Shown here: one piece after another, positions 5,368 to 32,176 of the stretch
Layout: every line of letters begins with the position of its first letter
How positions within the stretch are numbered: position 1 is the first letter of the stretch
Made by a program: the position numbers and the translations under genes
Notes under the pieces: model-generated
Seen by the model: the letters and a program-made list of their open reading frames with translations, nothing else
Database searches by the model: none
What the model was told of the DNA's origin: nothing
Assembly: GCA_020632695.1 (NCBI GenBank)
Contig: JACKFB010000003.1
Span: 321,061-385,060, forward strand
Source: Deltaproteobacteria bacterium
GTDB taxonomy: Bacteria > Myxococcota_A > UBA9042 > PHBI01 > JACKFB01
Direction of reading: 5' to 3'
Length of the DNA stretch: 64,000 bases

Positions 5368-5904
5368 ATGCGCGCCGACCCGCCCTTCGCCATCGTCCTC
5401 GCCGCGGCCCTCGCGGCCGCGATGACCTTGCTCTTCCTGCTCCCCGGCTGCGGAGGCGCGAAGGGCCAGACCAAGGGCGAGGTCACTCCCGCCACCCTCG
5501 CCGGGCCGCCGAAGCCCTGGGAGGAGATGGAGCACAAGGAGAAGGCCGAGTACATGCGCGACCACGTCGTGCCGGTGATGAAGCCCCTCTTCGTGGCCTT
5601 CGACGCGACGGAGTACGCCGAGTTCGGCTGCAAGACCTGCCACGGGCCCGACGCGCGCGAGCGCGAGTTCCAGATGCCCAACCCCCACAACGAGGTGCTC
5701 TACCCCACCGGCTCGCCCGAGCAGCTCCGCACCGTCGCCGAGCACCCGGAGGCGGTGCGCTTCATGGTGAACGAGGTCGTGCCGACCATGCAGGCGCTCT
5801 TGGGCATCGAGCCCTACGATGAGGTGCGCGGCACCGGCTTCTCCTGCTTCTACTGCCACCCGGCCGGCCAGGTCACCGCGCCGGTGGTGGTGCCCGGCGG
5901 CTGA
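5368..5904 (+). CDS. diheme c-type cytochrome family lipoprotein
   Basis: Signal peptide with lipobox LLPGC. Two CxxCH motifs (CKTCHG, CFYCHP). Confidence 0.7.
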   Translation: MRADPPFAIVLAAALAAAMTLLFLLPGCGGAKGQTKGEVTPATLAGPPKPWEEMEHKEKAEYMRDHVVPVMKPLFVAFDATEYAEFGCKTCHGPDAREREFQMPNPHNEVLYPTGSPEQLRTVAEHPEAVRFMVNEVVPTMQALLGIEPYDEVRGTGFSCFYCHPAGQVTAPVVVPGG

Positions 5905-6047: not shown

Positions 6048-6587
6048 ATGGGCGTCCCGCGTCCGGCGTCGACCCGCGCGGCCCTCGCCACCGCGCTGCT
6101 GTGGCTGGTCGCGGTCGGCCTGCTCGACCGGGCCACGCCGCCCTTCCTGGGCTTGTCGTACTTCTACCTGCCGGCCGCCGCCTTCGTGACCTGGCACGCC
6201 GGTCGCCGCGCGGGGGCGACGATCGCCCTGGTGGCCACGGTGGTGTGGTACCTCGCCGACGCCGAGGGCGTGGACTTCCCGGGCATCCTGGCCCGCGCCT
6301 GGAACGCCGGCATCCGGCTCGCCTTCTTCCTGACGGTCGTCTACCTGCTGGCTGCCCTGCGCGCCACGCTGCGGCGGCAGGACTCCCTCATCACCGAGCT
6401 GCGCGACGCGCTGGCCGAGGTCCGCACCCTGCGCGGTCTGGTGCCGATCTGCGCCTGGTGCAAGAAGATCCGCGACGACGCGGGCTACTGGAAGTCGGTC
6501 GAGAGCTTCATCGAGGCGCACACCGAGGCGGAGTTCACCCACGGCATGTGCCCCGACTGTCACGAACGGATCAGCTCACAGCGCTGA
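6048..6587 (+). CDS. membrane sensor-domain protein with C-terminal 4-Cys ribbon
   Basis: Four predicted TM helices, then ICAWCKKIRDDAGYWKSVESFIEAHTEAEFTHGMCPDCHE. This CxxC...CxxC tail recurs on many deltaproteobacterial sensor proteins. No kinase or output domain. Confidence 0.6.
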   Translation: MGVPRPASTRAALATALLWLVAVGLLDRATPPFLGLSYFYLPAAAFVTWHAGRRAGATIALVATVVWYLADAEGVDFPGILARAWNAGIRLAFFLTVVYLLAALRATLRRQDSLITELRDALAEVRTLRGLVPICAWCKKIRDDAGYWKSVESFIEAHTEAEFTHGMCPDCHERISSQR

Positions 6588-6597: not shown

Positions 6598-6981
6598 TCA
6601 GGGCGCGGCCTCGATGGCCTTCGCGTACTTCTCGAAGCGCTCGTGGGCGTCGGGCTTCAGCGCGTAGTCCGGCGAGAGGCCCGAGTGGCACGTCTTGCAC
6701 GTGATCTTCTCGCCCGTGGCCTTCTTCGCGGCGTTGACGAAGCCCTTCATCGCCTTCTTGGCGGCCTTCTGCCCGCCCTCGGTGCAGGCCTTCTTCACGA
6801 TGGCGTGCTTGAACTCCTTGCTCTTGCACGGCGGGGACTCGCCCGGCGCGTCGGCGCCGTCTCCGTCGTCCAGGCGTGCTGCGCCGGGAGCCGGGTCGCC
6901 GAGCGCCATGGCGGGCGCGAACGCCGCGCCGACGGCGAGCATCGCGACGGGCACCAGGAGGTAGAGGACGGAACGCTTCAT
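6598..6981 (-). CDS. small secreted c-type heme protein
   Basis: Start at Met 44 of ORF 6598..7110 (MKRSVLYLLVPVAMLAVGAAFA signal peptide). Single CxxCH (CKTCHS). Lys-rich. Confidence 0.6.
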   Translation of the reverse strand: MKRSVLYLLVPVAMLAVGAAFAPAMALGDPAPGAARLDDGDGADAPGESPPCKSKEFKHAIVKKACTEGGQKAAKKAMKGFVNAAKKATGEKITCKTCHSGLSPDYALKPDAHERFEKYAKAIEAAP

Positions 6982-7214
6982 GGGGACTCCCTGGGGTTCA
7001 TCGAGGGGGCGGGCCGCCCGCGGTCGAGACTCAGTCGTATAGGCGTGGCCTCGCGCCGAGGTCAAACGCCCGGCTGCGGCCAGCACGGCGAGACCGGCTC
7101 GACGGCGCACCGCCGCGGCTATTCAGCGGGCGGGCGGCGTGGACCTCCACCTTGCAGTCGGTCGCGCGCGTGGCCATAGTCCCCGCCGACACTCCAGCGG
7201 GATGGAGAGGGTGC

Positions 7215-7445
7215 ATGGGACGGCAGATGCGGGCAGCGGCCGTGGCGGCGCTCCTGACGGGCGCGATGGTCCTCGGCGGCTGCCAGACGACGCGCTACTA
7301 CGAGCGCGCGCGCCTCGTCGATCGCGCCATGGACTTCGACGGGGGCAGCGGCCTCGTCTACATCCGCAACAAGATCGAAGCGGCGCGAGAGGGCGGCTTC
7401 GGTGGCTTCGGCGCCAGCGCGGCCGGCGGGTGCGGGTGCCAGTAG
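7215..7445 (+). CDS. DUF4266 family lipoprotein
   Basis: 76 aa. Lipobox LGGC. Family-typical YYERARLVDRAMDFDGGSG...CGC ending. Confidence 0.75.
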   Translation: MGRQMRAAAVAALLTGAMVLGGCQTTRYYERARLVDRAMDFDGGSGLVYIRNKIEAAREGGFGGFGASAAGGCGCQ

Positions 7446-8581
7446 GGAGCGCCCCGGGCCTGGCGACGCGCATCGCCGTCGTCGCGTTGCTCCTCTCGGC
7501 CGCCGGGGCCGGCAGGGCGGCGCCAGCGGGCGATCAGCACGTCACCATCGATCTCTACGCCTTCTCGCAGGGCGACGAGCGCGGGAACCCGCTGAAGGCC
7601 GAGGGCTTCGAGTACGGCGCGATGCGGGTCGACATGAAGATGCGCATGACCCCGGCGGTGGCCTTCCGCTTCAACGCCTCCGTGGCCCGGCTGCGCAACG
7701 ACGACCCCCAGCGCGTGCCGGCCAGCATCGAGAACGCCCGCATGACCGCGGCCTCGGCCGAGATCCTCACGCTCGACTCGAGCATCGGGCTGGACATCGA
7801 CCCGAAGGACAGCCCCTGGCACATCCGGCCGTCGGGCTACTACCACCACCAGAACGACTTCGTGTCCTCGGGCGGCGACCTCGCCGTCGAGCGCGAGTTC
7901 GCCGGCGGCGACACCGTGCTCGGCGTGACCTACAGCTTCCGCATCGCCTCGCCGCTGCTCCGTCGCTGGAGCGGTCGCAACGACGGCCGCGACATCTCGG
8001 TGGCCAACAACCTGCTGCTGGGCTGGACCCAGGTCCTGTCGCCCTCGTGGGTGCTGGCCCTGAGCGCGCAGGTGACCCGGCAGTCCGGCTGGCTCGGCGA
8101 GAGCTACAACTTCGTCGCCCTCTTCAACGATGCGGGCGCGCCGGTGAAGCTGGTCGACGAGGTGCTCCCCCGCAAGCGCCACCGCGTGCAGGTCAACGGC
8201 CGCCTCCGCTACACGCCCCGTCAGGGCCTGGTGCTGGGCCTCGACGCCAGCGGCTACCTCGACGACTGGTCGGTGGCCCAGCTCGCCGTCGAGCCCAGCC
8301 TCGAGGTGCCGCTCTCCCGCACCATCCGCTGGCGCTTCTGGTATCGGCTGGCCTGGCAGGGGGCCTCGCGCTACTTCGATTCGCGGCCCCTGGCCGAGAC
8401 GCGCTACCGCACCCAGGACCCCGATCTCGGCAGCTTCCTGATGCACAGCCCGGGCACGATGCTGACGCTGCCCTTCGGCGAGGAGCGGATCTGGCTGACC
8501 CGCCTCGGGCTCTACGGCTTCGTGCGCAACGATGGCATCTACGGCCTCGGCGCCGACCTCAGCCTGGGGATGGAGTGGTGA
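7436..8581 (+). CDS. DUF3570 family outer-membrane (beta-barrel) protein
   Basis: Signal peptide then beta-rich sequence ending in an aromatic residue. GTG start at 7430 or 7436, overlapping the DUF4266 stop. Conserved partner of DUF4266. Confidence 0.7.
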   Translation: MPVGSAPGLATRIAVVALLLSAAGAGRAAPAGDQHVTIDLYAFSQGDERGNPLKAEGFEYGAMRVDMKMRMTPAVAFRFNASVARLRNDDPQRVPASIENARMTAASAEILTLDSSIGLDIDPKDSPWHIRPSGYYHHQNDFVSSGGDLAVEREFAGGDTVLGVTYSFRIASPLLRRWSGRNDGRDISVANNLLLGWTQVLSPSWVLALSAQVTRQSGWLGESYNFVALFNDAGAPVKLVDEVLPRKRHRVQVNGRLRYTPRQGLVLGLDASGYLDDWSVAQLAVEPSLEVPLSRTIRWRFWYRLAWQGASRYFDSRPLAETRYRTQDPDLGSFLMHSPGTMLTLPFGEERIWLTRLGLYGFVRNDGIYGLGADLSLGMEW

Positions 8582-10029
8582 TGCGTGGTCTCTGTCTGGT
8601 CGCCGCGCTGGCGACGCTCGTGGCCTTCGCCCCGGCCTGTGCCCCGGCGGGCCCGTCCCTGCGCGATCCCGCCGCCACCGGTGCGGACGCCACCAGCGCC
8701 CGCCGCCTCGACGGCACGACGGTCGCCTGGGACGACGCGCTGTCGGGGCCGCGCGACAAGCTGCTGGTGTTCATGACGCTCTGGTGCAAGCCCTGCAAGG
8801 CCGAGCAGCCCGCCGTCGAGGCCTGGGCGCGCGCCCACGCCGACAGCTTCGACACCCTGGTGGTCGTCAGCGGCAGCCCGCTCGAGCACGTCCAGCAGAT
8901 GGTGCGCGACCGCCACGTCGCCCTCGACGACGTGACCGTGTGGGTGGACTCCGCGGGAACCGTCGCCGCGCGCTACGGCATCAGCGCCACGCCCACGCTG
9001 CTCTGGACCAGCCCGGACGGACGCGTCCGAGGCACCTGGAACCACATCGACGCGGTCTCGGTCGAGCCCGGGGCGCCCTCGGCCGGTGGGCCTCCGGCCG
9101 AGCCCGTCACCGACAGCGGCCACGAGCTGGGGACCTCCTACGACGTGGTCGTGTGGGCGGACGCCGCCCGGCGCACCGACGTGGAGAGTGACCTCGCGTC
9201 CGGCCGCGCCCTGGTGCACGCGCTGGACGAGCGCCTGTCCGAGTGGCGCCCCGACAGCGAGGTCAGCCGCGTCAACCGCCTCGCCGCCTCCGGCCCGGTG
9301 CCCCTGGCGCCCGACCTCCGCCAGCTCCTGTCCGGGGCGCGCCAGGTCTCGGAGGTCACCGCCGGCGCCTTCGACATCACCTGGCGGCCGCTGGGCGACC
9401 TGTGGCGTGATGCCATGGTGCAGGGCGTCTCGCCCCGCCCCGAGGCCCTGGCCGAGGTGCTCGCCGCCGTCGGCTACCGCCACGTCCACCTCGACGACCG
9501 CGGCGTGGCCTTCGACCACCCGGCCACGCGCATCGGCGTCGCCGGCGTCGCCAAGGGCTGGATCATCGACGCCCTGTGGCGCCACCTGCGGGAACGCGGC
9601 TGGGAGGACCTGATCGTCAACATCGGCGGCGACATCCGCACCAGCGGGCGCCAGGGCGATGGCGCGCCCCAGGTCTTCCGCATCGCCGACCCCTGGCATC
9701 CTGGCGAGGTGGTCACCTCCATCGAGGTCGAGGACACCGCCATCGCCACCTCGGGCAACTACGCCCGGGTGCGCGAGGTGGCCGGCGAGCCCATCGGACA
9801 CATCCTGGACCCGCGGACGGGGCGACCGCCGGCCTTCGACGGCTCGGTCACCGTGCTGACCCGCGACGCGGCGATGGCGGATGCGCTGGCCACGGGGCTC
9901 TTCGTGATGGGTCCCGACGCGGGGCTGGCGCTGGCGCGGCAGACGCCCGGGCTGGAGGTGATCTACGTGACGCGCTCGGCGCTGCGCAGCACGCTCTCCG
10001 AGGTGGACGGCCGGCCGCTGCCGCTCTGA
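8581..10029 (+). CDS. apbE: fusion of TlpA-like periplasmic thioredoxin and ApbE FAD:protein FMN transferase
   Basis: ATG overlaps the DUF3570 stop (TGATG). Signal peptide, WCKPCK thioredoxin active site, then a full ApbE-like domain (about 300 aa) in the same frame. Confidence 0.8.
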   Translation: MRGLCLVAALATLVAFAPACAPAGPSLRDPAATGADATSARRLDGTTVAWDDALSGPRDKLLVFMTLWCKPCKAEQPAVEAWARAHADSFDTLVVVSGSPLEHVQQMVRDRHVALDDVTVWVDSAGTVAARYGISATPTLLWTSPDGRVRGTWNHIDAVSVEPGAPSAGGPPAEPVTDSGHELGTSYDVVVWADAARRTDVESDLASGRALVHALDERLSEWRPDSEVSRVNRLAASGPVPLAPDLRQLLSGARQVSEVTAGAFDITWRPLGDLWRDAMVQGVSPRPEALAEVLAAVGYRHVHLDDRGVAFDHPATRIGVAGVAKGWIIDALWRHLRERGWEDLIVNIGGDIRTSGRQGDGAPQVFRIADPWHPGEVVTSIEVEDTAIATSGNYARVREVAGEPIGHILDPRTGRPPAFDGSVTVLTRDAAMADALATGLFVMGPDAGLALARQTPGLEVIYVTRSALRSTLSEVDGRPLPL

Positions 10030-10120
10030 CGCGGGCTGCCGGTTGGCCTGGCCAGCGCCCGGGCCACGGCGCGCAAGTCCCTGGAAGGAAAGGCGTCAGT
10101 CACCCGGCTGGAGGATGTCG

Positions 10121-10200
10121 GGAAACCGGGTCGCGCTCGGGCCGGGTCGCGCTCGGGCCGGGTAGGCCGGGTCGCGCTCGGGCCGGGTCGCGCTCAGGCG
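10121..10200. repeat. tandem about 17-bp GC-rich repeat (cgggtcgcgctcgggcc)x4-5
   Basis: Direct tandem copies visible by eye, lying between the convergent 3' ends of apbE and the response-regulator gene. Confidence 0.7.
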
Positions 10201-10628
10201 GCGGCACTGTGGCGGCCCTCGGAGGGGCGCGCGCGCCTCGGGCCGCCCAGCGCCTCGGCCACGGCGTCGAGGATGACGGCCAGGCGGAAGGGCTTCTCGA
10301 TGACCTCCATCGTCAGCCCGCGGTCGCGGAGCGCGTCGCGGGCGTCCGCTGCGCGCGCCGACATCAGCAGCATGGGCAGGGAGTGCCAATGCCGCGCGAC
10401 CTGTGACGCCAATGTCACACCATCGACCCGGGGCATGTGCACGTCGGCGAGGACCAGATCGATGGCGTCGTGGTCGGCGGCCAGCCGCTCGAGCGCCTCG
10501 GCGCCGTCGACGGCCTCGAGGACCTCGTAGCCCCCGTGCTCCAGGATGCTGCGGGTGATCCGGCGAACCGAGGGCTCGTCCTCGACGACGAGGACGCGTG
10601 GCTTCGCGGCGATGATGTGAACGGTCAT
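10194..10628 (-). CDS. single-domain response regulator (CheY-like receiver)
   Basis: Start at Met 70 of ORF 10194..10835. PRVLVVEDEP and DLVLADVHMP (phospho-acceptor Asp) motifs. No output domain. Confidence 0.8.
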   Translation of the reverse strand: MTVHIIAAKPRVLVVEDEPSVRRITRSILEHGGYEVLEAVDGAEALERLAADHDAIDLVLADVHMPRVDGVTLASQVARHWHSLPMLLMSARAADARDALRDRGLTMEVIEKPFRLAVILDAVAEALGGPRRARPSEGRHSAAA

Positions 10629-10761
10629 GGGGTTCTCCGAGCGTGCGGGCGGATGGAGTGCCCGCGGGGCCGACAGCTGCGGTACGGGGTCACCTTGCAG
10701 GTGGCGTACCAACCGCCGTCGCCCTCTCATGGCAGGACAGGGCAGAGGAGCAACGCGAGCC

Positions 10762-11244
10762 TCAGTAGGGAATTCCCGCGCGGCGGTAGACGAAGTGGAC
10801 CAGCCAGGCCGGCCCGATGAGGAGAAACTGCACATCCTTGAAGAATGAGGGCTTCTTCCCCTCGATCTTGTGGCCGACGAACTGCACGGCCCAGGACACG
10901 GCGAAGAGCACGACCGAGAGCAGCCACAGCGGGACCGCTTCGGCCTGATCCACCAGCAGGTTCCCCCAGACGATGGCGCCGCAGAGCAGCAGCATCCCGG
11001 GGAAGAGGCGCAGGGACAGGCGGGCGTAGAAGGCCAGGGCCACGAGCATGCCCAGGGTGCCCCAGTTGAGCAGCGGCTCGGCGGCGCCAGGGAGGACGCC
11101 GGCCAGGGGGCCGCGGGGGATCGACCAGAGCAGCCCGATCGTGCTGAAGAAGATCAGCGGCACGCAGATCCAGTGGATGAGCTTGTTCGTGGGGTTCCGG
11201 TGGCTGTCGCCGTACTCGTCGAACCACGCCTGGGCGGTCTTCAT
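10762..11244 (-). CDS. DUF962 (Mpo1-like) membrane protein
   Basis: WFDEYGDSHRNPTNKLIHWICVPLIFFS and FVGHKIEGKKPSF motifs typical of DUF962/YGL010w-like proteins. Confidence 0.75.
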   Translation of the reverse strand: MKTAQAWFDEYGDSHRNPTNKLIHWICVPLIFFSTIGLLWSIPRGPLAGVLPGAAEPLLNWGTLGMLVALAFYARLSLRLFPGMLLLCGAIVWGNLLVDQAEAVPLWLLSVVLFAVSWAVQFVGHKIEGKKPSFFKDVQFLLIGPAWLVHFVYRRAGIPY

Positions 11245-11637
11245 CGCCGCGTCCTCCTGTCACGCCGAGGTGATCGCCACGTGACCCGGAGTGCGTACCG
11301 CATCTGACGCACCGCGTCACGCAAGAAAAGCACCGAGATCGCACGTGATCGATACCGGCGGCGGGCGTGGGTGACCCGCTCGCGTCAGGGCGCGGGGCCG
11401 CGGGCCCGGTGGCCCGGCCGTAGACGAGGTCCCCGAGCGGGGAAGGGCCGATGGTCGCGCTCGGACCGAGGCAGGGGCTCCCGCACGCCGGGCGTGCCGT
11501 GCGGCCCTGGCACGCTCGGGGCGGACTGGCTTGGACGGACGCCTCGCCGGGGTCTATCGTCCGCAGTGGCGGGTCCGAGTGCCTTCCGAGGCCCGGCGCC
11601 GCCCCTCCCCGACGTGACCCAGACCCAGGAGCTCCCC

Positions 11638-12108
11638 ATGAAGATCGACATCGGCATCACCGAGACGGGCCGCCACGCGCTGGTCGAGCCGCTCTCGCGC
11701 CTGCTGGCCGACACCTACACGGTCTATCTCAAGACCCACAACTTCCACTGGAACGTCACCGGGCCGATGTTCACGACCCTGCACAACCTCTTCATGGCGC
11801 AGTACACCGAGCTCTCGCTGGCCGTCGACGAGATCGCCGAGCGCATCCGCGCGCTGGGTGCCCCCGCGCCGGGCTCCTACGCCGACTTCGCCCGCCTCTC
11901 GACCGTGCGCGACGCCGAGGGCGTGCCCCGCGCCCAGGACATGATCACCACCCTGGTGGCCGACCACGGCACCCTGGTGGCCACCGCGCGCGGCGTGGTG
12001 GAGGCGGCCGAGGCCGCCGGCGACATCGTCTCGGTGGACCTGGCCACGCGGCGCACCGACGTCTCGCAGAAGGCGGCCTGGATGCTGCGCAGCCACCTGG
12101 AGGGGTGA
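11638..12108 (+). CDS. dps: Dps family DNA-binding ferritin-like protein
   Basis: 156 aa from Met 90 of ORF 11371..12108. YLKTHNFHWNVTGP and ferroxidase-site residues typical of Dps. Confidence 0.85.
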   Translation: MKIDIGITETGRHALVEPLSRLLADTYTVYLKTHNFHWNVTGPMFTTLHNLFMAQYTELSLAVDEIAERIRALGAPAPGSYADFARLSTVRDAEGVPRAQDMITTLVADHGTLVATARGVVEAAEAAGDIVSVDLATRRTDVSQKAAWMLRSHLEG

Positions 12109-14552: not shown

Positions 14553-14599
14553 CGCGGGCGGCTGGGTGCGGGGCGCCGAGGGCGCGAGGCGGGGTGCAG

Positions 14600-16693
14600 A
14601 TGCGTGGGTTCCTCGTCGGGGTGGCGGTGTCGGTCGCCGGGCTGTGGGCCTGCACGGATCAGCACGTGGAGTATGTGAAGGACAGCGGCGGGCGGGCCGA
14701 CGCGGTGGTGCGGGCGGATCCGGGGGCGGACGCCGGGGCCGAGACCGGGGCCGAGACCGGGGCCGAGACCGGGGCCGAGGCCGGGGCCGAGACCGGGGCC
14801 GAGACCGGGGCGGAGGCCGGGGCCGAGGCCGGGGCCGAGACCGGGGCCGAGACCGAGACCGGGGCCGAGACCGAGACTGGCGGCGAGACCGAGACTGGCG
14901 GCGAGACCGATTCGGGGCCGGGTTGTGACACATCGACGCCCGACCCGGTGGTTTGCGATGACGGAGACCCCTGCACCATCGACGTCGGGACCATCGACCC
15001 GGTCACCTGCGTGCTGAGCTGCGTGTCGACGCCCGTGGCCGATCCCGACGGCGACCCCGACGGGGACGGGCTGGGCACCTGCGCCGAGCTGTCCGATGGC
15101 ACCGACTGGACCGACCCCCTCGTCCACAACGGGCTCATGGCCACCATCGGCCGGGCGCCGGACTTCGCGCTGGTCTGGCAGGGCGGCTGCGAGGCCCTGC
15201 CGGACGATTACGGCGCCCTGGTCGCCGAGGCCTTCGAGGGCTCCGAGCCCTCCATGCCCATCCGCGCCGGCTGGGACTACGAGGCCGCCGCCACGGCCGA
15301 CTACAGCCACCCGAGCTACCCCTTCGACCCGCCCTTCACCTCGGCCGATCAGGTCGGCAGCTACGGCAGCTTCCAGCTCCTGCTCACCGGCGGCTTCAGC
15401 CTGGACGCGCCCGGCCGCGTCTGCCTGTCTGTCGACATCGGCGCTGGCGGCGCCGGCCCCGCCGACATCGCCGGGCGCAAGAACGGCTGCGCCCGCGTCT
15501 ACCTGGACCCCGACCTCGAGCCGGCGCCCCTGGCCGAGACGGGCTACGGCTCGGCAGCCAGCCCCGCCACCGGCTGCGCGACGCTCGAGGCCGGCCCGCA
15601 CGCCGTCGCCTGGGTCATCCGCCACAACGAGGCCTACACCTACGCGCCGCGCTTCCATCCGCGCTGGTGCGTCTCCTCCGGCGCCGACTGCGTCCCCGAC
15701 CAGCCCTTCGCCCAGGCGCAGCTCCGCTCGAGCGGGCTGACCGTCGGCTGCGAGCCGGCGTGCGCGGGCAAGACCTGCGGCCCCGACGGCTGTGGTGGCG
15801 ACTGCGGCACCTGCGAGTCCCCAGCCACCTGCACCGCCGCCGGTACCTGCCAGACCACCTGCGCGCCGGCGTGCCAGGGAAAGGTCTGCGGCCCCGACGG
15901 CTGCGGCGGCGACTGCGGCACCTGCGACGCCGGCGAGACCTGCGACGCCGGCGTCTGCCTGGGTACCGGCCCCGCCGTCTGCGGCGACGGGAAGCTCGGC
16001 GGCGGCGAAGCCTGCGACGACGGGAACACCGCCACCGAGAAGCCCCCCGACGTCGCGTCCCTGCCCGCCGGCGCCTGCATCTCCGACTGCTCCGTCGCCA
16101 TGAAGACCTGCGGCAACGGCAGCTTCGAGCCCGCCCTCGGCGAGGAGTGCGACGACGGCAACGCCATCGACACCGACGCCTGCGACAGCTCCTGCATCAC
16201 CAACACCTTCGACATCGGGTCGGCGTGCACCCAGAGCGTCGGCGAGAACGAGCCGAACTTCACCAGCGGCACCATCACCGGCTGCGACGAGGTCCCCGCC
16301 ACCTTCGGCGGCTGCGCCCGCGGCTGCCTCCGCAGCATCCAGCCACCGCTTGGCGCCGCCTTCGTCAGCAACCCGGGCGGCTACTGCACCCTGGTCGCCA
16401 CCAAGTGCGACGGGTCGGGGGTCATCTGCGGCAGCGCACCGAAGATGGGCGACTTCGCCACCTGCACGGCCTGCCCCGAGGGCTTCGTGCTGAGCGAGAC
16501 GGCCACGGCGGTCGAAGCCATCGGCTTCAAGGCCACGATCACCTCCCGCTCCTGCCTCCGTCCCTGCCAGACGCAGTCGGATTGTCGCTGGCGTCAGTGG
16601 GAGTCGCACTCGGATGTGAAGGCGTGGCGCAGCTATGTCTGCAAGGCGCTCCCGTCCACGGGCACGGCCAGGGTCTGCGTGCCGTCACCATGA
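14600..16693 (+). CDS. secreted Cys-rich repeat lipoprotein
   Basis: Start at Met 513 of ORF 13064..16693. Lipobox GLWAC. (ETGA)n low-complexity linker. Two CAGKTCGPDGCGGDCGTC modules. CGDGxxxxxExCDDGN units (myxococcal Cys-rich repeat type). Confidence 0.7.
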   Translation: MRGFLVGVAVSVAGLWACTDQHVEYVKDSGGRADAVVRADPGADAGAETGAETGAETGAEAGAETGAETGAEAGAEAGAETGAETETGAETETGGETETGGETDSGPGCDTSTPDPVVCDDGDPCTIDVGTIDPVTCVLSCVSTPVADPDGDPDGDGLGTCAELSDGTDWTDPLVHNGLMATIGRAPDFALVWQGGCEALPDDYGALVAEAFEGSEPSMPIRAGWDYEAAATADYSHPSYPFDPPFTSADQVGSYGSFQLLLTGGFSLDAPGRVCLSVDIGAGGAGPADIAGRKNGCARVYLDPDLEPAPLAETGYGSAASPATGCATLEAGPHAVAWVIRHNEAYTYAPRFHPRWCVSSGADCVPDQPFAQAQLRSSGLTVGCEPACAGKTCGPDGCGGDCGTCESPATCTAAGTCQTTCAPACQGKVCGPDGCGGDCGTCDAGETCDAGVCLGTGPAVCGDGKLGGGEACDDGNTATEKPPDVASLPAGACISDCSVAMKTCGNGSFEPALGEECDDGNAIDTDACDSSCITNTFDIGSACTQSVGENEPNFTSGTITGCDEVPATFGGCARGCLRSIQPPLGAAFVSNPGGYCTLVATKCDGSGVICGSAPKMGDFATCTACPEGFVLSETATAVEAIGFKATITSRSCLRPCQTQSDCRWRQWESHSDVKAWRSYVCKALPSTGTARVCVPSP
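14741..14900 (+). repeat. tandem 12-bp coding repeat (gagaccggggcc)n encoding (ETGA)n
   Basis: Perfect or near-perfect 12-bp tandem units inside the lipoprotein gene. Confidence 0.8.
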
Positions 16694-18112: not shown

Positions 18113-18547
18113 ATGACCGTCGCGCTCGAGTATCCCAAGGGGCTGTATGGGCCGTCGCCGCTGGTCGATCTGTCCGACCGGACCGTGCGTGAGCGGTTGG
18201 GTCCGGCGGCGGTCAAGGCCTTCTTCCGCATCATGGAGGCCTGGGGCGTGCGGGACGAGCAGGCGCGGCGTCTCCTGGGCGGCATGTCCAACGGCGCCTT
18301 CTACGCGCTGAAGAAGCAGCCGGAGCGGACGCTGGACGAGGATCGGCTGCGGCGGGTGTCCTTGCTGGTCGGCATCTTCAAGGCGCTCAACATCCTCTAC
18401 GACGAGGCGCTGGCCGACCGCTGGATGCAGCTCCCCAACCGCAACCGCCTGTTCGGCGGCGAGACCCCGCTCGACTACCTGATGTCCGGCGGCCTCCCGG
18501 CCTTCCTGACCCTGCGCCGGCTGCTCGATGCTCGCCGCGCAGGGTGA
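18113..18547 (+). CDS. Xre-like antitoxin with DUF2384 domain (RES-Xre system)
   Basis: 144 aa. C-terminal region typical of MbcA/ParS/Xre DUF2384 antitoxins. Overlaps the downstream RES gene by 20 nt. Confidence 0.7.
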   Translation: MTVALEYPKGLYGPSPLVDLSDRTVRERLGPAAVKAFFRIMEAWGVRDEQARRLLGGMSNGAFYALKKQPERTLDEDRLRRVSLLVGIFKALNILYDEALADRWMQLPNRNRLFGGETPLDYLMSGGLPAFLTLRRLLDARRAG

Positions 18548-19232
18548 GCTGCCGCCGGTCACCCGGCTGAGCCGCGCGGGCACGCACCGCCTGATCCCGT
18601 CGAACTACCTCGACGAGGGCGACAGCGTGCTGACGCGCCTCACCGGCGACGAGGGCGAGCTGGCGCTGCTCTTCGAGCTGGACCAGGCCACCAATGACCG
18701 CGGCGCCGCCGAGAACGGGCGCGCGCCGGCCATCGGCCCCGACGAGCTGGTCTTCGGCGTGCCCTACTACCGCACCGTCAACGCCGCCTTCGTCCATGCC
18801 CACCCGCTGGGCGCCCGCTTCAACGGGCCCGAGCGCGGCGCTTGGTACGCGGCCTTCGAGCTGCGCACCGCCCAGGCCGAGGTCGCCTGGCACAAGTCGG
18901 TCGAGCTGGCCGAGGTGGGCTGGTTCGAGCAGCGCCTGACCTGTGACGAGATGCTGGCCGACTTCGCCGGGCCCTTTCACGACCTCCGCGGCCAGCAAGC
19001 CTTCGCCGACTGCCTGCGCCCCGACAGCTACGAAGCCTCCCAGGCCCTGGCCGAGCGCCTGCTCGAGGCGGGCTCCGGCGGCGTCGTCTACCCGAGCATC
19101 CGTCGCGCCGCCGGCACCTGCCTGGCCTGCCTGCGCCCCGCGCTGGTCTACAACGTCCGCCGCGGCGCGCGCTACGTCTTCACCTGGTCCGGCAACGCCT
19201 CCCCGACCATCCGCCGGGAGAGCGGCGCCTGA
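18528..19232 (+). CDS. RES domain toxin
   Basis: R...E...S signature arrangement (RFNGPERGAWYAAFE ... YEASQALAERL ... VVYPSIRRAAG). Lies immediately downstream of the DUF2384 antitoxin. Confidence 0.75.
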   Translation: MLAAQGELPPVTRLSRAGTHRLIPSNYLDEGDSVLTRLTGDEGELALLFELDQATNDRGAAENGRAPAIGPDELVFGVPYYRTVNAAFVHAHPLGARFNGPERGAWYAAFELRTAQAEVAWHKSVELAEVGWFEQRLTCDEMLADFAGPFHDLRGQQAFADCLRPDSYEASQALAERLLEAGSGGVVYPSIRRAAGTCLACLRPALVYNVRRGARYVFTWSGNASPTIRRESGA

Positions 19233-22873: not shown

Positions 22874-24232
22874 CTACTGCTCGCACTCGCAGACGGACAT
22901 CTTGCCCTGCACGGTGGTCCACCACTGGCCCGTCCAGCGGGCCGGCGCGGCGCACACCTTCGGGCACTTCTTCTTCGCGTCGCCCTGGTTCCAGATGGGC
23001 CCCGCCTCGACGGCCTGCTTCACCGGCACCGGCGTCACGCACTCGCAGACCGACATCTTGCCGGCCACCGTCGTCCACCACTGCCCGTTCCACTTCGAGG
23101 GCGCCGTGCAGACCTTCGGGCACTTCTTCTTCGCGTCGCCCTGGTTCCAGATGGGGCCGGCCTTCCGCGCCTCCTTCGTCTCGGCCGGCGCGGGCTGCGG
23201 CGGAGCCTCGACGACCACCGGCGGCGGCTCGGGCTCGGGCTCGGGCGTGACGACGACCACCGGCGGCGGCGCCCCCACCTCGCACTCACACACCGACATC
23301 TTGCCCTGCACGGTGGTCCACCACTGCCCGGTCCAGCGCGCCGGACCGCGGCACACCCTCGGGCACTTCTTCTTGGCGTCGCCCTGGTTCCAGATGGGCC
23401 CGGCTTCGCGCGCCTCCTTGAAGACGACCGGCGTCGCGCACTCGCACACCGACATCTTGCCCTGGACCGTGGTCCACCACTGGCCGGTCCACCGCGACGG
23501 CGCGCTGCACACGCTCGGGCACTTCTTCTGGGCGTCGCCCTGGTTCCAGATGGGGCCCGCCTCGCGCGCCTCCTTCGTCTCCGCCGGGGCCGCCGAGACC
23601 GGAGCGGGCGCGGGCTCCTCGGCCGCCTCGCTGATGCGCCAGAGCTGGTTCCGGTTGCCCGACGCCTTCTTCGGGTACGCGATGATGCGCGCCAGCGGCT
23701 CGGGGCTGCCGCCGTCGATGTCGAGGACGAAGCCGTTGAGCTTGCTCTCGATGAAGAACCAGCCGGGGACCGGCGAGCGCACCCGGCGCCAGAGCTGGTT
23801 GTCGGTGCCCTCCGCCTTCTTCGGGTAGGCGATGATGCCGGTGGCCGGCGCGGGGTTGGCGCCGTCGATGTCGAGGACGAAGCCATTGAGCTTGCTCTCG
23901 ATGAAGAACCAGCCGCGCTGGGGCGCCGGCACCATGCGCCAGAGCTGGTTGTCGGCGCCCTCGGCCTTCTTCGGGTAGGAGATGACGTGCGCGGCCGGCG
24001 CGTTGCTGCCGCCCTCGATGTCCATCACGAAGCCGTTGAGGCGGCTCTCGATGTAGCCGAAGTCGCCGCGATCGCCGTGCGGGGCGCGGCGCGCCTGAGC
24101 CGTGCCCGCCGATGCGGTGACGGCGAGGGCGACGGTCAGCGCGAGACCTCGCAGCCTGAGCGCCGGAGGCCGGGCGCTGCGCGGGTCGGGCGGCGGGGCG
24201 GCGACGGGAAGACGGGGCGGTGTGGTGATCAT
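22874..24232 (-). CDS. secreted lectin-like protein: three ricin-B (QxW) repeats plus four small 4-Cys lectin-like repeats
   Basis: Signal peptide. Three beta-trefoil-type LNGFVLDIDG...AYPKK...DNQLWR repeats. Then four copies of AGPIWNQGDAKKKCP.VC..P.RWTGQWWTTV.GKMSVCEC, resembling the family NCBI names mannan-binding family protein. Confidence 0.7.
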   Translation of the reverse strand: MITTPPRLPVAAPPPDPRSARPPALRLRGLALTVALAVTASAGTAQARRAPHGDRGDFGYIESRLNGFVMDIEGGSNAPAAHVISYPKKAEGADNQLWRMVPAPQRGWFFIESKLNGFVLDIDGANPAPATGIIAYPKKAEGTDNQLWRRVRSPVPGWFFIESKLNGFVLDIDGGSPEPLARIIAYPKKASGNRNQLWRISEAAEEPAPAPVSAAPAETKEAREAGPIWNQGDAQKKCPSVCSAPSRWTGQWWTTVQGKMSVCECATPVVFKEAREAGPIWNQGDAKKKCPRVCRGPARWTGQWWTTVQGKMSVCECEVGAPPPVVVVTPEPEPEPPPVVVEAPPQPAPAETKEARKAGPIWNQGDAKKKCPKVCTAPSKWNGQWWTTVAGKMSVCECVTPVPVKQAVEAGPIWNQGDAKKKCPKVCAAPARWTGQWWTTVQGKMSVCECEQ

Positions 24233-24365
24233 GGCGACTCCTCGGGGGCGGACCGCCGGCAAGCCTCGACGAGGGCGCCGCCACCCATACCGGCGGGCAG
24301 CGGCGGGTCGTCGACCGGCGATGTCGGGAACGAGGCGGCGACGCTACACCAGCCGAGGAATTCAA

Positions 24366-25191: not shown

Positions 25192-26637
<1,446 letters not shown>

Positions 26638-26720
26638 GCTCGGCCCCTGCGCGCCGCGTCACCGCCGTCGCGAGCGGGCTCGCTCGCCATCTCGACGGAA
26701 ACCAAGTCGGAGTCCTGCTG

Positions 26721-27473
<753 letters not shown>

Positions 27474-27489
27474 TGCGCGGGGGCGGCCG

Positions 27490-28833
27490 ATGAACGCGAT
27501 GCACCTCATGGCGGCGGAGCTGGCCGGGGCCAGCGGGCGCGCCGGTGAGCCGGACTGGCTGCGCGAGCGGCGCGGCGAGGGGCGGGCGCGCTTCGAGGCG
27601 CTGGGGTGGCCGACGCGCGCCGACGAGGCGTGGCGCTATGTGAAGATGCGTGAGCTGGTGCGCTGGGGCGAGGCCTCGGCGCCGCCGCCGGACGCCGCCG
27701 CGGTGGAGCGGGCGATGGCCCGGGCGGGTACGGCGCTCGACGGCGTGGCGGCGCGCGTGGTGATGGTCGACGGGGTGGTGCGGGCCGAGGCCACGACGCG
27801 CGACGGGTCGGCGCCCGAGGTGTCGGTGCTGCCGCTGGGCGAGGCGCTGAGCGTGGTCGGGGACCACCTGCGGTCGAGCCTTGGAAGGATCGCGAGCCTG
27901 ACGGGCGACGGCGTGGCGGCGCTGGCGCTGGCCGAGCTGGGCGACGCGCTGGTGGTGCACGTGCCGCGGGGCGCTGCGCTGTCGGGGGCGCTGGAGATCG
28001 TGCACGTGGCGACCGGCGGCGAGGCCGGGCTGCGCTTCCCCCGGGTCTTCGTGGCCGTGGACGCCACCGGGGAGCTGACCCTCATCGAGCGCTTCATCGG
28101 CGTGCCCGAGGAGGCGGGCTTCACCGCCGCGACGACCGAGATCCTGGTCGGCGGCGACGCGACGGTGCGCCACGTGCGCCTGGTCGACCTGCCCGAGGCG
28201 GCCCTGCACAACGGGCACGTGGGCGTGCGCGTGGGGCGCGGCGGCAGCTTCACCTCGTACGTGCTGTCGCTGGGCGGGCGGCTGGGGCGCACCGAGCTGA
28301 CCGTCGACCTGGCCGAGCCGGGCGCGAGCTGCCAGCTCGACGGCCTGTACGTGGCGTCGGGGGACAGCCACTTCGACCACGCGACCACCATCGCGCACAC
28401 GTCGCCGCACACCACCAGCGGGGAGACCTACAAGGGCGTCATCGGCGACGCGGCGACGGGGACCTTCTTCGGGCGCGTGCTGATCCGCGAGGGCGCGGTG
28501 AAGAGCGACACGCGCCAGCTCAACCACAACCTGCTGCTCTCGACCGAGGCGCGGGTGCACACGCGTCCGCAGCTCGAGATCGACAACGACGACGTCAAGG
28601 CGGCGCACGGCTCGACCGTGGGGCAGCTCGACGAGATGGCTGTCTTCTACCTGCGCTCGCGGGGGATCGACGAGCGCAGCGCGCGGGGGCTCCTGACCTG
28701 GGCCTTCGCCGAGGAGATGGTCGTGCGGCTGCCCGTGCCGGCGCTGGTGCGCGAGCTGGGCCGCGTGCTGGCGGCGCGCCTGGCCAGCGACGCGTCGCCC
28801 GTGGCGGCCGCGGCGATCGAGGAGGCCCTGTGA
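27490..28833 (+). CDS. sufD: Fe-S cluster assembly protein SufD
   Basis: 447 aa. C-terminal SufBD beta-helix region conserved. Position after sufC. Confidence 0.9.
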   Translation: MNAMHLMAAELAGASGRAGEPDWLRERRGEGRARFEALGWPTRADEAWRYVKMRELVRWGEASAPPPDAAAVERAMARAGTALDGVAARVVMVDGVVRAEATTRDGSAPEVSVLPLGEALSVVGDHLRSSLGRIASLTGDGVAALALAELGDALVVHVPRGAALSGALEIVHVATGGEAGLRFPRVFVAVDATGELTLIERFIGVPEEAGFTAATTEILVGGDATVRHVRLVDLPEAALHNGHVGVRVGRGGSFTSYVLSLGGRLGRTELTVDLAEPGASCQLDGLYVASGDSHFDHATTIAHTSPHTTSGETYKGVIGDAATGTFFGRVLIREGAVKSDTRQLNHNLLLSTEARVHTRPQLEIDNDDVKAAHGSTVGQLDEMAVFYLRSRGIDERSARGLLTWAFAEEMVVRLPVPALVRELGRVLAARLASDASPVAAAAIEEAL

Positions 28834-30692: not shown

Positions 30693-30856
30693 GGGCGTGT
30701 AGCGGATGAGGGATTCAGGTGGATCCGAGGAGCTTTCGAGGCGATTCGGCGGGGCGTGGCGAAGCGAAGCCGTTTCCAGAACCCGAGGCAAACCAAGGGG
30801 TTTGCCGCAGCGGTCGTGGGACGCCGGGGTGCCCGAGAGCGCCCGAAGCCGACGAA

Positions 30857-32166: not shown

Positions 32167-32176
32167 GGGGGGCGGC

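What the first reader, a model, noticed from the sequence alone, without database searches (positions are those of the whole stretch)
7215..10029. DUF4266 / DUF3570 / TlpA-ApbE cluster with the thioredoxin and FMN transferase fused into one periplasmic polypeptide
The DUF4266 lipoprotein, the DUF3570 outer-membrane barrel, a TlpA-like thiol-disulfide oxidoreductase and ApbE recur together in diverse bacteria, and the function of the set is unknown. Here the four genes are translationally coupled (overlapping stop/start codons). The WCKPCK thioredoxin is fused in-frame to a full ApbE domain. This argues that disulfide reduction and protein flavinylation act on the same periplasmic client, plausibly the DUF3570 or DUF4266 protein. 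Three small c-type heme lipoproteins lie just upstream (2.1-7.0 kb), hinting at an extracytoplasmic redox module.
Basis: partly seen in the sequence, partly recalled or inferred. Interest (0 to 1): 0.6.

Follow-up and report, generated by a model that had tools for sequence, protein, structure and literature searches.

The report
Fused thioredoxin–ApbE in DUF3570 flavinylation operon
This is a three-gene operon for an already published envelope redox system, in which ApbE attaches a flavin to the DUF3570 outer-membrane barrel; here the helper thioredoxin is fused to ApbE, a common gene-fusion variant that is not a sequencing error.

Summary
Window 7215-10029 (+) carries three overlapping genes: a DUF4266 lipoprotein, DUF3570, and a 482-aa lipoprotein made of a TlpA/ResA-like thioredoxin (WCKPC) joined to a complete ApbE.

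The set is not of wholly unknown function. Méheust et al. 2021 (eLife) described ApbE + DUF3570 + thioredoxin-like + DUF4266 clusters and showed experimentally that ApbE flavinylates DUF3570.

The fusion is genuine. Seventy of the 120 best homologue clusters are fused (37-72% identity; named ones Myxococcota and Planctomycetota). The CxxC is kept. The linker is not hydrophobic and holds no vestigial signal peptide. Some relatives have the same gene order with separate trx and apbE genes.

The "same client" idea fails. This DUF3570 has no cysteine, as do 29 of 34 in its subfamily. DUF4266 has the only thiols (C-terminal GGCGCQ) but no conserved acceptor motif.

A strict Dxx[ST]GA[ST] search finds nothing. 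However, T-A-A-S107 aligns with the family's flavinylation column, and most DUF3570s use [ST]SAS there.

The AlphaFold model makes DUF3570 an outer-membrane β-barrel, with the site in a long loop opposite the termini.

The upstream haem proteins are syntenic only in the two closest relatives. This is a new variant of a known kind, of modest interest.

The parts
7215..7445 (+). DUF4266 lipoprotein, 76 aa. It has a lipobox ...LGG-C23, a conserved EAAREG helix, a Gly-rich tail, and C73-G-C75-Q76 at the extreme C-terminus (window 7431-7442).
   Evidence: Pfam PF14086 E 3e-7. Alignment A3 shows invariant C23, C73 and C75. All 29 loci examined end in G[GS]CGC[NQER] and have a lipobox.
7436..8581 (+). 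DUF3570, 381 aa. It has a signal peptide (aa 1 to about 30), no cysteine in the mature part, and a predicted β-barrel of about 18 strands ending in ...LSLGMEW.
   Evidence: Pfam PF12094 E 2e-11. AlphaFold2 pLDDT 90.5 and pTM 0.81, all-β. Foldseek matches outer-membrane barrels: OmpG, BcsC, PelB, a polysaccharide outer-membrane secretin (4y25), AlgE and OccK. Identical to the NCBI MAG protein P0270.
7745..7756 (+). Probable flavinylation site T104-A105-A106-S107 (context ENARMTAASAE). It lies in the 20-residue connection (aa 89-108) between strands 3 and 4.
   Evidence: It aligns with the [ST][GSA]A[ST] column of the wider DUF3570 family. In the close subfamily the acceptor is S/T in 34 of 34, Ala-1 in 29 of 34, Thr-3 in 29 of 34, and Gly-2 in 0 of 34. 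Among 120 Bacteroidota/Chlorobiota-type homologues, 106 carry two [ST]SAS motifs and no [ST]GA[ST]. Actual modification was not tested.
8581..8694 (+). N-terminal export signal of the fusion protein (MRGLCLVAALATLVAFAPAC20-A...), followed by a low-confidence tether.
   Evidence: A hydrophobic N-terminus and a lipobox-like Cys20. Most of the relatives aligned in A2 have a lipobox-like Cys at the end of the hydrophobic N-terminus, such as ASGC, LAAC or LAGC. pLDDT is below 50 for aa 15-35.
8695..9030 (+). TlpA/ResA/DsbE-like thioredoxin domain (aa 39-150) with W68-C69-K-P-C72 (window 8782-8796).
   Evidence: Pfam AhpC-TSA and Redoxin above their cut-offs. Sequence matches to StoA 3erw and DsbF 3ios. 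Foldseek target-normalised TM 0.70-0.73 to Mtb DsbE/DsbF, ResA, StoA and Etrx2. W68, C69 and C72 are invariant in 22 fused homologues. CxxC is present in 64 of 70 fused clusters; five of the rest are N-terminal fragments.
9031..9126 (+). Inter-domain linker (aa 151-182). It is Pro/Ala/Gly-rich, not hydrophobic, and varies in length between homologues.
   Evidence: pLDDT is below 50 for aa 163-169, and pTM is 0.67 despite a mean pLDDT of 89. The gap between the two domains ranges from 4 to 61 residues among 70 fused homologues. The A2 alignment shows the same variability.
9127..9963 (+). ApbE (FAD:protein FMN transferase) domain, aa 183-461. Conserved motifs are IATSGNY, GH407ILDPRTG and DAAMADALATGLFV.
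   Evidence: Pfam PF02424 E 2e-68, full profile. phmmer to V. cholerae ApbE 6nxi, E 2.5e-40, aa 172-460. Foldseek target-normalised TM 0.86, rmsd 2.1 Å, to T. pallidum Ftp. The motif residues are invariant in A2.

Best explanation
The three genes encode a self-contained variant of the published ApbE/DUF3570/thioredoxin/DUF4266 envelope redox module.

(1) DUF3570 is an outer-membrane β-barrel with no cysteines.

(2) The ApbE domain of the exported lipoprotein transfers FMN from FAD onto Ser107 of DUF3570. The site is T-A-A-S, the family's [ST][SA]A[ST] position. Transfer most likely happens while the barrel precursor is still unfolded in the periplasm, because the site lies in a long loop on the face opposite the termini.

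(3) The small DUF4266 lipoprotein contributes a redox-active C-terminal Cys-Gly-Cys on a flexible Gly-rich tail.

(4) The TlpA-like WCKPC domain, tethered to ApbE by a flexible linker, keeps that Cys-Gly-Cys reduced. It draws on a DsbD/CcdA-type membrane reductant encoded elsewhere, so electrons can pass from thiol to flavin at the barrel.

The fusion arose from adjacent, translationally coupled trx and apbE genes. It lets ApbE use the thioredoxin's export signal and keeps both activities at the same complex.

Status of each step:
- Shown elsewhere: ApbE flavinylates DUF3570 (C. luteolum).
- Shown here: the domain identities, the reality and conservation of the fusion, the conserved acceptor Ser/Thr, the absence of Cys in DUF3570, and the barrel fold (predicted).
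- Inferred: the Trx-to-DUF4266 pairing, the direction of electron flow, and the final acceptor.
For: Published precedent for the cluster type and for DUF3570 as an ApbE substrate (PMC8238504).

Domain calls.

Fusion conserved in 70 of the 120 best homologue clusters, with an invariant WCxxC.

The DUF4266-DUF3570-[Trx-ApbE] cassette recurs in the named source organisms Myxococcota and Planctomycetota with otherwise unrelated flanks.

The split relative L091 has the same gene order, with separate signal peptides on Trx and ApbE.

The acceptor S/T is conserved in 34 of 34, at the family's site column. [ST]SAS is the dominant motif in the family. A Gly-to-Ala change in the motif still allows about 50% flavinylation, and Asp-to-Ala has only a minor effect (PMC12052999).

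There is no Cys in mature DUF3570. The GGCGC terminus of DUF4266 is universal.

Barrel model and Foldseek hits. Two independently folded domains joined by a disordered linker.

In Méheust et al., C. luteolum DUF3570 recovered mainly from the insoluble cell pellet was flavinylated after cytoplasmic co-expression of signal-peptide-truncated constructs. This fits modification of an unfolded substrate.
Against: - No experiment exists on this protein or on any T-[SA]-A-S site. The strict D-x-x-[ST]-G-A-[ST] motif is absent.
- The position usually held by Asp is Ala101 here.
- No DsbD/CcdA lies within ±10 kb in six fused loci with Pfam lists (L001, L002, L004, L085, L086, L087) or in L088, nor among the roughly 50 window genes scanned. 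The electron source is therefore assumed.
- Operons without a thioredoxin gene exist (L089, and the Bacteroidota type). The Trx may therefore be accessory.
- A clade of split relatives has an ApbE with no signal peptide. This does not fit a simple model of periplasmic flavinylation.
- The topology of the site loop rests on strand parity in a predicted model. Coordinates could not be inspected.
Confidence: 0.55

Rival explanations
1. Both domains are purely biogenesis factors. ApbE flavinylates DUF3570 once. The Trx domain acts only during assembly, protecting the DUF4266 Cys-Gly-Cys from DsbA-type oxidation so that it can bind a metal or cofactor or dock into the barrel. It is not a standing electron relay.
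For: ApbE acts once per substrate, so fusion of two maturation activities is parsimonious. Operons without Trx exist (L089; the ApbE-DUF4266-DUF3570 type in Bacteroidota and Chlorobiota), so Trx looks accessory. No DsbD is co-localised.
Against: Méheust et al. found 227 clusters of this type next to DsbD, which suggests a sustained electron supply. The active-site variants WCGPC, WCVPC and WCKPC are of the reductase type. Nothing here separates one-off from continuous reduction.
Confidence: 0.25
2. One reading: disulfide reduction and flavinylation act on one and the same client polypeptide (DUF3570 or DUF4266).
For: The two catalytic domains are on one chain, and both candidate clients are encoded in the same operon.
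Against: Mature DUF3570 has no cysteine here and in 29 of 34 subfamily members. DUF4266 has the cysteines, but its 'FGAS' is not conserved: relatives have GGS or GSA, and the -3 position is F or L rather than S/T.
Confidence: 0.05
3. DUF3570 of this clade has lost flavinylation because its motif has degenerated. The ApbE domain then serves other FMN-binding proteins encoded elsewhere in the genome, and DUF3570 is simply a porin-like partner.
For: None of the 37 closest subfamily representatives has [ST]GA[ST]. The clade keeps one site where many homologues have two. Gly-to-Ala halves flavinylation in a model substrate.
Against: The acceptor S/T is conserved in 34 of 34 and Ala-1 in 29 of 34, in an otherwise variable loop. 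Most DUF3570s, including the Chlorobiota-type clade, use [ST]SAS. apbE is always co-encoded, and here it is physically fused into the operon.
Confidence: 0.1
4. The fusion is an assembly or sequencing artefact: a lost stop codon or a frameshift between two separate genes.
For: Separate, adjacent and overlapping trx and apbE genes exist in relatives (L091, L090, L092).
Against: An identical 482-aa product is on record as P0001, a cluster of three member sequences held in the Logan collection. Seventy fused clusters at 37-72% identity come from NCBI, JGI, ENA and Logan assemblies. The linker is in frame, variable in length and not hydrophobic. A vestigial ApbE signal peptide would be expected after a recent stop loss, and none is there.
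Confidence: 0.02
5. The cluster is one part of a larger extracytoplasmic redox island that includes the upstream c-type haem proteins.
For: Three CxxCH proteins lie at 2142-2708, 5368-5904 and 6598-6981(-). Two of them are syntenic in L001 and L005. A separate split-type locus has a cytochrome c gene about 0.6 kb upstream of DUF4266.
Against: No homologues of these proteins occur in any of the more distant fused loci L002-L004 and L006-L010, and no cytochrome family appears in the Pfam lists for L085-L087 apart from one Cytochrome_P460 gene about 7.5 kb upstream in L085. They are separated from the operon by unrelated genes and by strand changes.
Confidence: 0.05

Closest known systems
ApbE / DUF3570 / thioredoxin-like / DUF4266 clusters ('DsbD systems') of Méheust et al. 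2021, eLife 10:e66878, with experimental flavinylation of Chlorobium luteolum DUF3570
   Same: The same four protein families in one operon. DUF3570 is the ApbE substrate. DUF4266 has a C-terminal CXC. Of the published clusters, 316 likewise lack a neighbouring DsbD.
   Different: - Trx and ApbE are one polypeptide here.
- The Trx domain matches Redoxin/AhpC-TSA (TlpA-like), not PF13899.
- There is one acceptor site (T-A-A-S) where the paper reports two.
- No DsbD is nearby.
- The paper's main text mentions neither fusions nor a barrel fold.
Split four-gene relatives DUF4266-DUF3570-Trx-ApbE (L091, L090, L092) and Trx-DUF4266-DUF3570-ApbE (Thermodesulfobacteriota: L025, L031 and L038; unclassified Deltaproteobacteria MAG: L051)
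   Same: Orthologous proteins. DUF3570 has a single NA..[ST]SAS-type site. The operons are tight and overlapping.
   Different: trx and apbE are separate genes. In L091 each has its own signal peptide. In the L090/L092 clade ApbE has none. In the Thermodesulfobacteriota-type loci trx sits at the other end of the operon.
Trypanosomatid fumarate reductases with an N-terminal ApbE domain (reviewed in J Biol Chem 2025;301:108453)
   Same: They are a precedent for ApbE being fused to another protein of the same pathway.
   Different: In those enzymes ApbE is fused to its own flavinylation target and acts inside the cell. Here it is fused to a thiol-disulfide oxidoreductase, is exported, and the target is a separate protein.
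DsbD/CcdA to TlpA/ResA/CcmG reductive pathways of the cell envelope
   Same: An exported thioredoxin fold with WCxxC, membrane-anchored. It is structurally closest to DsbE/DsbF, ResA and StoA.
   Different: Scores lie far below the cut-offs of every named NCBIfam equivalog (StoA 28.6 bits against 210; ResA 26.2 against 170). The presumed client is a CXC lipoprotein, not an apocytochrome or a copper protein. No DsbD is nearby.
Porin-cytochrome conduits (MtrAB/MtrC type; from my own knowledge, not tested here)
   Same: An analogy of function only: a redox cofactor carried by or within an outer-membrane β-barrel, with a periplasmic partner.
   Different: The cofactor is covalent FMN on the barrel itself rather than a multihaem protein threaded through it. 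There is no sequence or fold relationship beyond 'β-barrel'. Electron transfer across the outer membrane has not been shown.

Membership tests
ApbE/DUF3570/Trx/DUF4266 flavinylation module (Méheust 2021) | ApbE, DUF3570 and DUF4266 genes co-localised in one cluster, with extracytosolic signals | tested here: met
   Pfam hits above the gathering scores for all three. The genes overlap on one strand. Each product has a signal peptide or lipobox.
ApbE/DUF3570/Trx/DUF4266 flavinylation module (Méheust 2021) | A thioredoxin-like component | tested here: met
   Present as the N-terminal domain of the ApbE protein, with WCKPC. It matches Redoxin/AhpC-TSA rather than the PF13899 family named in the paper.
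ApbE/DUF3570/Trx/DUF4266 flavinylation module (Méheust 2021) | DUF4266 with a conserved C-terminal CXC | tested here: met
   The protein ends in ...GGCGCQ.
ApbE/DUF3570/Trx/DUF4266 flavinylation module (Méheust 2021) | An acceptor motif in DUF3570 at the family's flavinylation position ([S/T]GA[S/T]-like) | tested here: met
   T104-A-A-S107 aligns with the family column [ST][GSA]A[ST]. The acceptor S/T is present in 34 of 34 subfamily members. [ST]SAS dominates the family.
Canonical ApbE substrates | The strict seven-residue motif D-x-x-[S/T]-G-A-[S/T] | tested here: not met
   No match in DUF3570, in DUF4266 or in any coding frame near the cluster. Gly is replaced by Ala and Asp by Ala101. 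Published mutagenesis tolerates both changes in part.
ApbE/DUF3570/Trx/DUF4266 flavinylation module (Méheust 2021) | Covalent FMN actually present on DUF3570 | not testable with these tools
   This needs co-expression with UV-fluorescence SDS-PAGE, or mass spectrometry.
ApbE/DUF3570/Trx/DUF4266 flavinylation module (Méheust 2021) | A neighbouring DsbD (PF02683). This holds for 227 published clusters and not for 316, so it is not strictly defining. | tested here: not met
   No DsbD hit among the roughly 50 window ORFs scanned, nor within ±10 kb of the fusion gene in seven related loci.
ApbE, FAD:protein FMN transferase (PF02424) | The full-length domain with the catalytic and Mg/FAD-binding motifs, and the ApbE fold | tested here: met
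   Pfam profile 1-265/266, E 2e-68. Alignment to 6nxi includes the His257 equivalent, H407. Target-normalised TM 0.86 to Ftp and FmnB. The motif residues are invariant in A2.
TlpA/ResA/DsbE-like extracytoplasmic thiol:disulfide oxidoreductases | An exported thioredoxin fold with an active-site CxxC | tested here: met
   WCKPC; Pfam Redoxin and AhpC-TSA; target-normalised TM 0.70-0.73 to DsbE, DsbF, ResA and StoA. It is not a member of any named equivalog, since NCBIfam scores are far below the cut-offs.
BAM-assembled outer-membrane β-barrel proteins | A signal peptide, a closed all-β barrel, and a C-terminal β-signal ending in an aromatic residue | tested here: met
   By prediction only. AF2 pLDDT 90.5, with 17 strands listed by DSSP; I read this as about 18, counting the broken strand at residues 226-241 as two, a count the termini parity requires but coordinates could not confirm. 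Foldseek probability 1.0 to outer-membrane barrels, query-normalised TM up to 0.52. The C-terminus is ...LSLGMEW, and W is terminal in 28 of 34. Localisation has not been tested experimentally.

The most novel reading that the evidence does not exclude
DUF3570 is an outer-membrane β-barrel whose covalently bound FMN sits on the face opposite the periplasmic termini, either at the cell surface or folded into the lumen. The Gly-rich CGC tail of the DUF4266 lipoprotein reaches it from the periplasm. The module would then be a haem-free thiol-to-flavin electron conduit across the outer membrane, charged by a dedicated Trx-ApbE enzyme. No flavin-based outer-membrane conduit of this kind has been described in the papers I could search.
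Probability: 0.2. Interest if true: 0.75.

Novelty: new variant of a known kind. Interest (0 to 1): 0.3.

Why it matters
The physiological role of the DUF3570 module is still open; Méheust et al. say its function "remains uncertain". The fused form gives a compact three-gene cassette that carries its own maturation enzyme, which is a convenient construct for heterologous reconstitution.

Three points established here sharpen the published picture:
- The thiol client and the flavin client must be different proteins, because DUF3570 has no cysteine.
- The family's real acceptor motif is [ST][SA]A[ST], so strict SGAT-type searches under-count ApbE substrates.
- DUF3570 is predicted to be an outer-membrane barrel with the flavin site on the distal face. 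This raises the testable possibility of flavin-mediated electron transfer at or across the outer membrane.

None of this makes the locus itself exceptional. The architecture is common in Myxococcota and Planctomycetota and is already annotated as 'FAD:protein FMN transferase'.

Tried and rejected
- **Strict motif scan.** A six-frame scan of the window for [ST]GA[ST] and [STA]GA[ST] found no hit in a coding frame near the cluster. I rejected this as a refutation once family alignments showed the site is [ST][SA]A[ST].
- **Representative search.** I re-ran it with the single window protein.
- **Supplementary tables.** I searched the eLife supplementary tables for PF12094, PF14086, Myxococcota and Redoxin to see whether fused ORFs were listed. 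The stored text is truncated and held nothing.
- **C. luteolum sequence.** I tried to recover the tested C. luteolum DUF3570 sequence through a homologue search seeded with a Chlorobiota MAG protein. It was not among the 120 listed hits, so the exact residues of the validated sites remain unseen.
- **Literature.** A search for ApbE plus TlpA gave no papers, and a search for PF12094/PF14086 found only the papers already known.
- **DsbD/CcdA.** None was found in the window or the related loci.
- **Haem proteins as module members.** Rejected on synteny.
- **Promoter and terminator scan of 6900-10300.** No sites were found. This is uninformative in a 73% GC genome.
- **Programmed frameshift** as the explanation for signal-less ApbE genes in the split clade. 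There is no slippery sequence; the junction is an ordinary TTG/TGA four-base overlap.
- **Model coordinates** are not exposed, so I could not measure whether the S107 loop lies in the barrel lumen.


Full report
**1. What is in the sequence**

The window is about 73% GC. On the + strand, three ORFs with the high third-position GC expected of real genes lie head to tail.
- 7215-7445 encodes a 76-aa protein.
- 7436-8581 encodes 381 aa.
- 8581-10029 encodes 482 aa.

Pfam assigns them as follows.
- The first is DUF4266 (PF14086, E 3e-7).
- The second is DUF3570 (PF12094, E 2e-11).
- The third is Redoxin/AhpC-TSA (aa 39-150) plus a complete ApbE domain (PF02424, aa 183-461, E 2e-68).

The DUF3570 GTG overlaps the DUF4266 TAG by 10 nt. 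The ATG of the third gene shares one base with the DUF3570 TGA. Public gene calls use the same starts: P0270, 381 aa, and P0001, 482 aa, both 100% identical.

P0270 is annotated 'DUF3570 domain-containing protein [Deltaproteobacteria bacterium]' on a 433-kb MAG contig. The closest species-level genome is an uncultured Myxococcales MAG (L005, 72% identity).

There are three ORFs rather than four, because the thioredoxin and ApbE are one gene.

**2. The system is already known**

Full-text search found essentially one relevant paper: Méheust et al. 2021, eLife 10:e66878. It describes clusters encoding ApbE, DUF3570, a thioredoxin-like protein and DUF4266. Of these, 227 lie next to DsbD and 316 do not.

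The paper notes the C-terminal CXC of DUF4266. It shows by co-expression and Ser-to-Ala mutagenesis that Chlorobium luteolum DUF3570 is flavinylated by its cognate ApbE at two sites. It proposes a hybrid thioredoxin/flavin electron path fed by DsbD and states that the function remains uncertain.

The main text does not mention a Trx-ApbE fusion or a barrel fold. The client of ApbE is known; the physiological role is not.

**3. The fusion is real and common**

A homologue search with the 482-aa protein returned 419 clusters. Among the best 120, 70 carry both domains. They are 385-576 aa long and 37-72% identical. They come from NCBI, JGI, ENA and Logan assemblies named Myxococcota, Planctomycetota, 'Deltaproteobacteria' and similar.

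In an alignment of 22 of them, W68, C69 and C72 and the ApbE motifs (ATSG, GH.DPR.G, D.AMAD.L.T) are invariant. The inter-domain linker varies in length and sequence; the domain gap ranges from 4 to 61 residues.

AlphaFold2 gives two confident domains (mean pLDDT 89). The linker is disordered (aa 163-169 below 50) and pTM is only 0.67, which indicates a flexible tether.

Foldseek matches the C-terminal domain to ApbE, Ftp and FmnB structures (target-normalised TM 0.86). It matches the N-terminal domain to DsbE, DsbF, ResA, StoA and Etrx2 (target-normalised TM 0.70-0.73). None of the 50 listed matches aligns over more than about 330 columns, so none spans both domains. phmmer against PDB sequences agrees.

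**4. Fused versus split**

Gene contexts fall into four types.
- (a) Fused: DUF4266-DUF3570-[Trx-ApbE]. This is the window plus 14 further loci: L001, L002/L003 (two contigs with the same genes), L004-L010 and L085-L087. L088 also has the fusion but no DUF3570 within ±10 kb.
- (b) Split, same order: DUF4266-DUF3570-Trx-ApbE (L090, L091, L092 and one JGI contig).
- (c) Trx-DUF4266-DUF3570-ApbE in Thermodesulfobacteriota (L025, L031, L038) and an unclassified Deltaproteobacteria MAG (L051).
- (d) ApbE-DUF4266-DUF3570 in Bacteroidota and Chlorobiota, and DUF4266-DUF3570-ApbE without Trx (L089).

In L091, Trx and ApbE each have their own signal peptide and overlap by 8 nt. That is the plausible ancestral state of the fusion. 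In the fused proteins the ApbE signal peptide is gone and the linker is not hydrophobic. This argues against a recent or artefactual stop-codon loss.

A rough NJ tree of ApbE domains, without support values, interleaves fused and unfused forms. More than one fusion or fission event is therefore likely.

Outside the cassette the flanks share nothing. No DsbD (PF02683) lies within ±10 kb in the seven fusion-bearing loci that have Pfam lists, nor among the roughly 50 window ORFs scanned.

**5. Who are the clients?**

A strict search for [ST]GA[ST] finds nothing in DUF3570, in DUF4266 or in any coding frame near the cluster. None of the 37 closest DUF3570 representatives has the motif.

In a 112-sequence alignment, the window's ENARMT104-A-A-S107 falls in the column where distant DUF3570s carry D-x-x-[ST]-[G/S/A]-A-[ST].

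In the close subfamily:
- position -3 is Thr in 29 of 34;
- position -2 is Ser in 25, Ala in 3, Gln in 3 and Gly in 0;
- position -1 is Ala in 29 of 34;
- the acceptor is Ser in 30 and Thr in 4, so S/T in 34 of 34.

Among 120 Bacteroidota/Chlorobiota-type homologues, 106 have two [ST]SAS motifs 12 residues apart and no [ST]GA[ST] at all.

A 2025 review reports that Gly-to-Ala in the motif still gives about 50% flavinylation, and that Asp-to-Ala has only minor effects (PMC12052999).

I therefore consider S107 a probable flavinylation site. It is the retained one of the family's two sites. The first site is reduced here to P-x-[TS], with S97 in the window.

The mature DUF3570 contains no cysteine, as in 29 of 34 subfamily members. 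It cannot be the thiol client. DUF4266 has a lipobox Cys and ends in G[GS]CGC[NQER] in every one of 29 loci. Its 'FGAS' is not conserved as an acceptor motif. The two catalytic domains therefore address two different proteins.

**6. DUF3570 is predicted to be an outer-membrane barrel**

With a 22-sequence alignment, AlphaFold2 gives pLDDT 90.5 and pTM 0.81. The model is all β. DSSP lists 17 strands; I read about 18, counting the broken strand at residues 226-241 as two. Foldseek finds only outer-membrane barrels at probability 1.0: OmpG, BcsC, PelB, a polysaccharide outer-membrane secretin (4y25), AlgE, OccK, and TonB-dependent receptor barrels. Query-normalised TM reaches 0.52.

The protein ends in ...LSLGMEW, and a terminal Trp occurs in 28 of 34 relatives. 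This is a typical β-signal.

Going by strand parity, the 20-residue connection that holds S107 (aa 89-108, between strands 3 and 4) lies on the face opposite the termini. So does the other long connection (aa 310-333, with the conserved T326, D328, D330 and L331). So do most of the other highly conserved residues: D47, G50, E56, Y136, H137, Q139, G218, E242, P245, R248, R250, Y274, D276, W278, R364 and D366.

Placing these on one face is my inference from the secondary-structure string. I could not inspect coordinates.

If the inference is right, ApbE must modify the unfolded precursor before insertion. The published result fits this: C. luteolum DUF3570 recovered mainly from the insoluble cell pellet was flavinylated.

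**7. Mechanism**

The best-supported reading is as follows. The exported Trx-ApbE lipoprotein flavinylates DUF3570 at S107. Its TlpA-like domain keeps the CGC of the DUF4266 lipoprotein reduced, using a DsbD/CcdA-type donor encoded elsewhere. Thiol-to-flavin electron transfer then takes place at the barrel.
- Step one rests on the published experiment with a homologue.
- The Trx-DUF4266 pairing is inferred by elimination, because DUF4266 is the only cysteine-bearing partner.
- The direction of electron flow is inferred from the reductase-type active sites (WCGPC, WCVPC, WCKPC).

A serious rival is that both domains act only during biogenesis. Trx-less operons and the absence of DsbD favour this. 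The published DsbD-linked clusters argue against it.

**8. Surroundings**

Three CxxCH proteins do lie upstream:
- 2142-2708, Tll0287-like, with a lipobox;
- 5368-5904, two CxxCH motifs, with a lipobox;
- 6598-6981(-), one CxxCH motif, a signal peptide and no lipobox.

Homologues of the latter two are found only in L001 and L005, the two closest relatives. None of the three has a homologue in the more distant fused loci. They reflect lineage-level synteny and are not part of the module.

Downstream are a response regulator, an Mpo1-like protein and a Dps-like ferritin. In L001 the same neighbourhood also holds a catalase and a LysR regulator. This may hint at an oxidative-stress or iron context, but again only in close relatives.

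**9. Verdict**

This is a real, well-conserved gene-fusion variant of a published system. It is a new variant of a known kind and of modest interest.

The more interesting possibility is a flavin carried on the distal face of an outer-membrane barrel and fed by a CXC lipoprotein. This is not excluded, and it rests on a predicted topology only.

Noticed in passing
L090:7990-8010, L092:4990-5010 (relatives, not the window); proteins P0079 and P0083-P0111: A clade of at least 17 clusters has split trx and apbE genes in which ApbE starts right at the conserved 'GRELGTSY' and has no signal peptide. The junction is a conserved A-TTG-A-C, where the TGA stop of trx overlaps a TTG start in the -1 frame. 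How a signal-less ApbE serves an exported substrate is unexplained.
   Followed up: partly
L088:9584-11395: In one Planctomycetota contig DUF4266 is followed directly by the Trx-ApbE gene. No DUF3570 lies within ±10 kb.
   Followed up: no
P0070 (565 aa): This protein joins the N-terminal half of DUF3570 (aa 4-232) to a complete ApbE domain (aa 264-556). It may be a deletion or a misassembly.
   Followed up: no
window 6048-6587 (+): A membrane protein with no Pfam hit. Its C-terminus carries paired cysteine motifs (ICAWCKKIR ... GMCPDCH). It sits between the haem proteins and is conserved in L005.
   Followed up: no
window 5368-5904 (+) and 6598-6981 (-): Two small exported proteins with two and one CxxCH motifs respectively. 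Neither has a Pfam or NCBIfam family above threshold. They are conserved only in the two closest relatives.
   Followed up: partly
window 10194-12108; L001:11410-15717: Downstream lie a stand-alone response regulator, an Mpo1-like protein and a Dps-like ferritin. In L001 the same block also holds a catalase and a LysR regulator, which looks like an oxidative-stress or iron neighbourhood.
   Followed up: no
window 14594-16693 (+): A 699-aa secreted, cysteine-rich protein with tandem (E/A)TGA repeats and no Pfam hit. The opposite strand reads as a spurious Pro/Arg/Ser-rich ORF.
   Followed up: no
window 18113-19232 (+): An Xre-type antitoxin (PF20432 and PF09722) and a RES-domain toxin, forming an overlapping pair.
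   Followed up: no
window 22874-24262 (-): A protein with four MVL mannan-binding repeats plus a ricin-B lectin domain.
   Followed up: no
window 25192-34515: A block of iron-sulfur and metal homeostasis genes: two SufBD-family genes flanking an ABC-ATPase gene, then a class-V aminotransferase (a suf-like operon). After these come a NifU-like protein, a sigma-54 activator, an ScdA/RIC hemerythrin protein and a CopD-like protein.
   Followed up: no
window 43552-50234 (+): Type I restriction-modification genes: HsdR at 43552-46194 and an N6-DNA methylase at 48843-50234. The second-position GC is lower than in the rest of the window, so the block may have been acquired horizontally.
   Followed up: no
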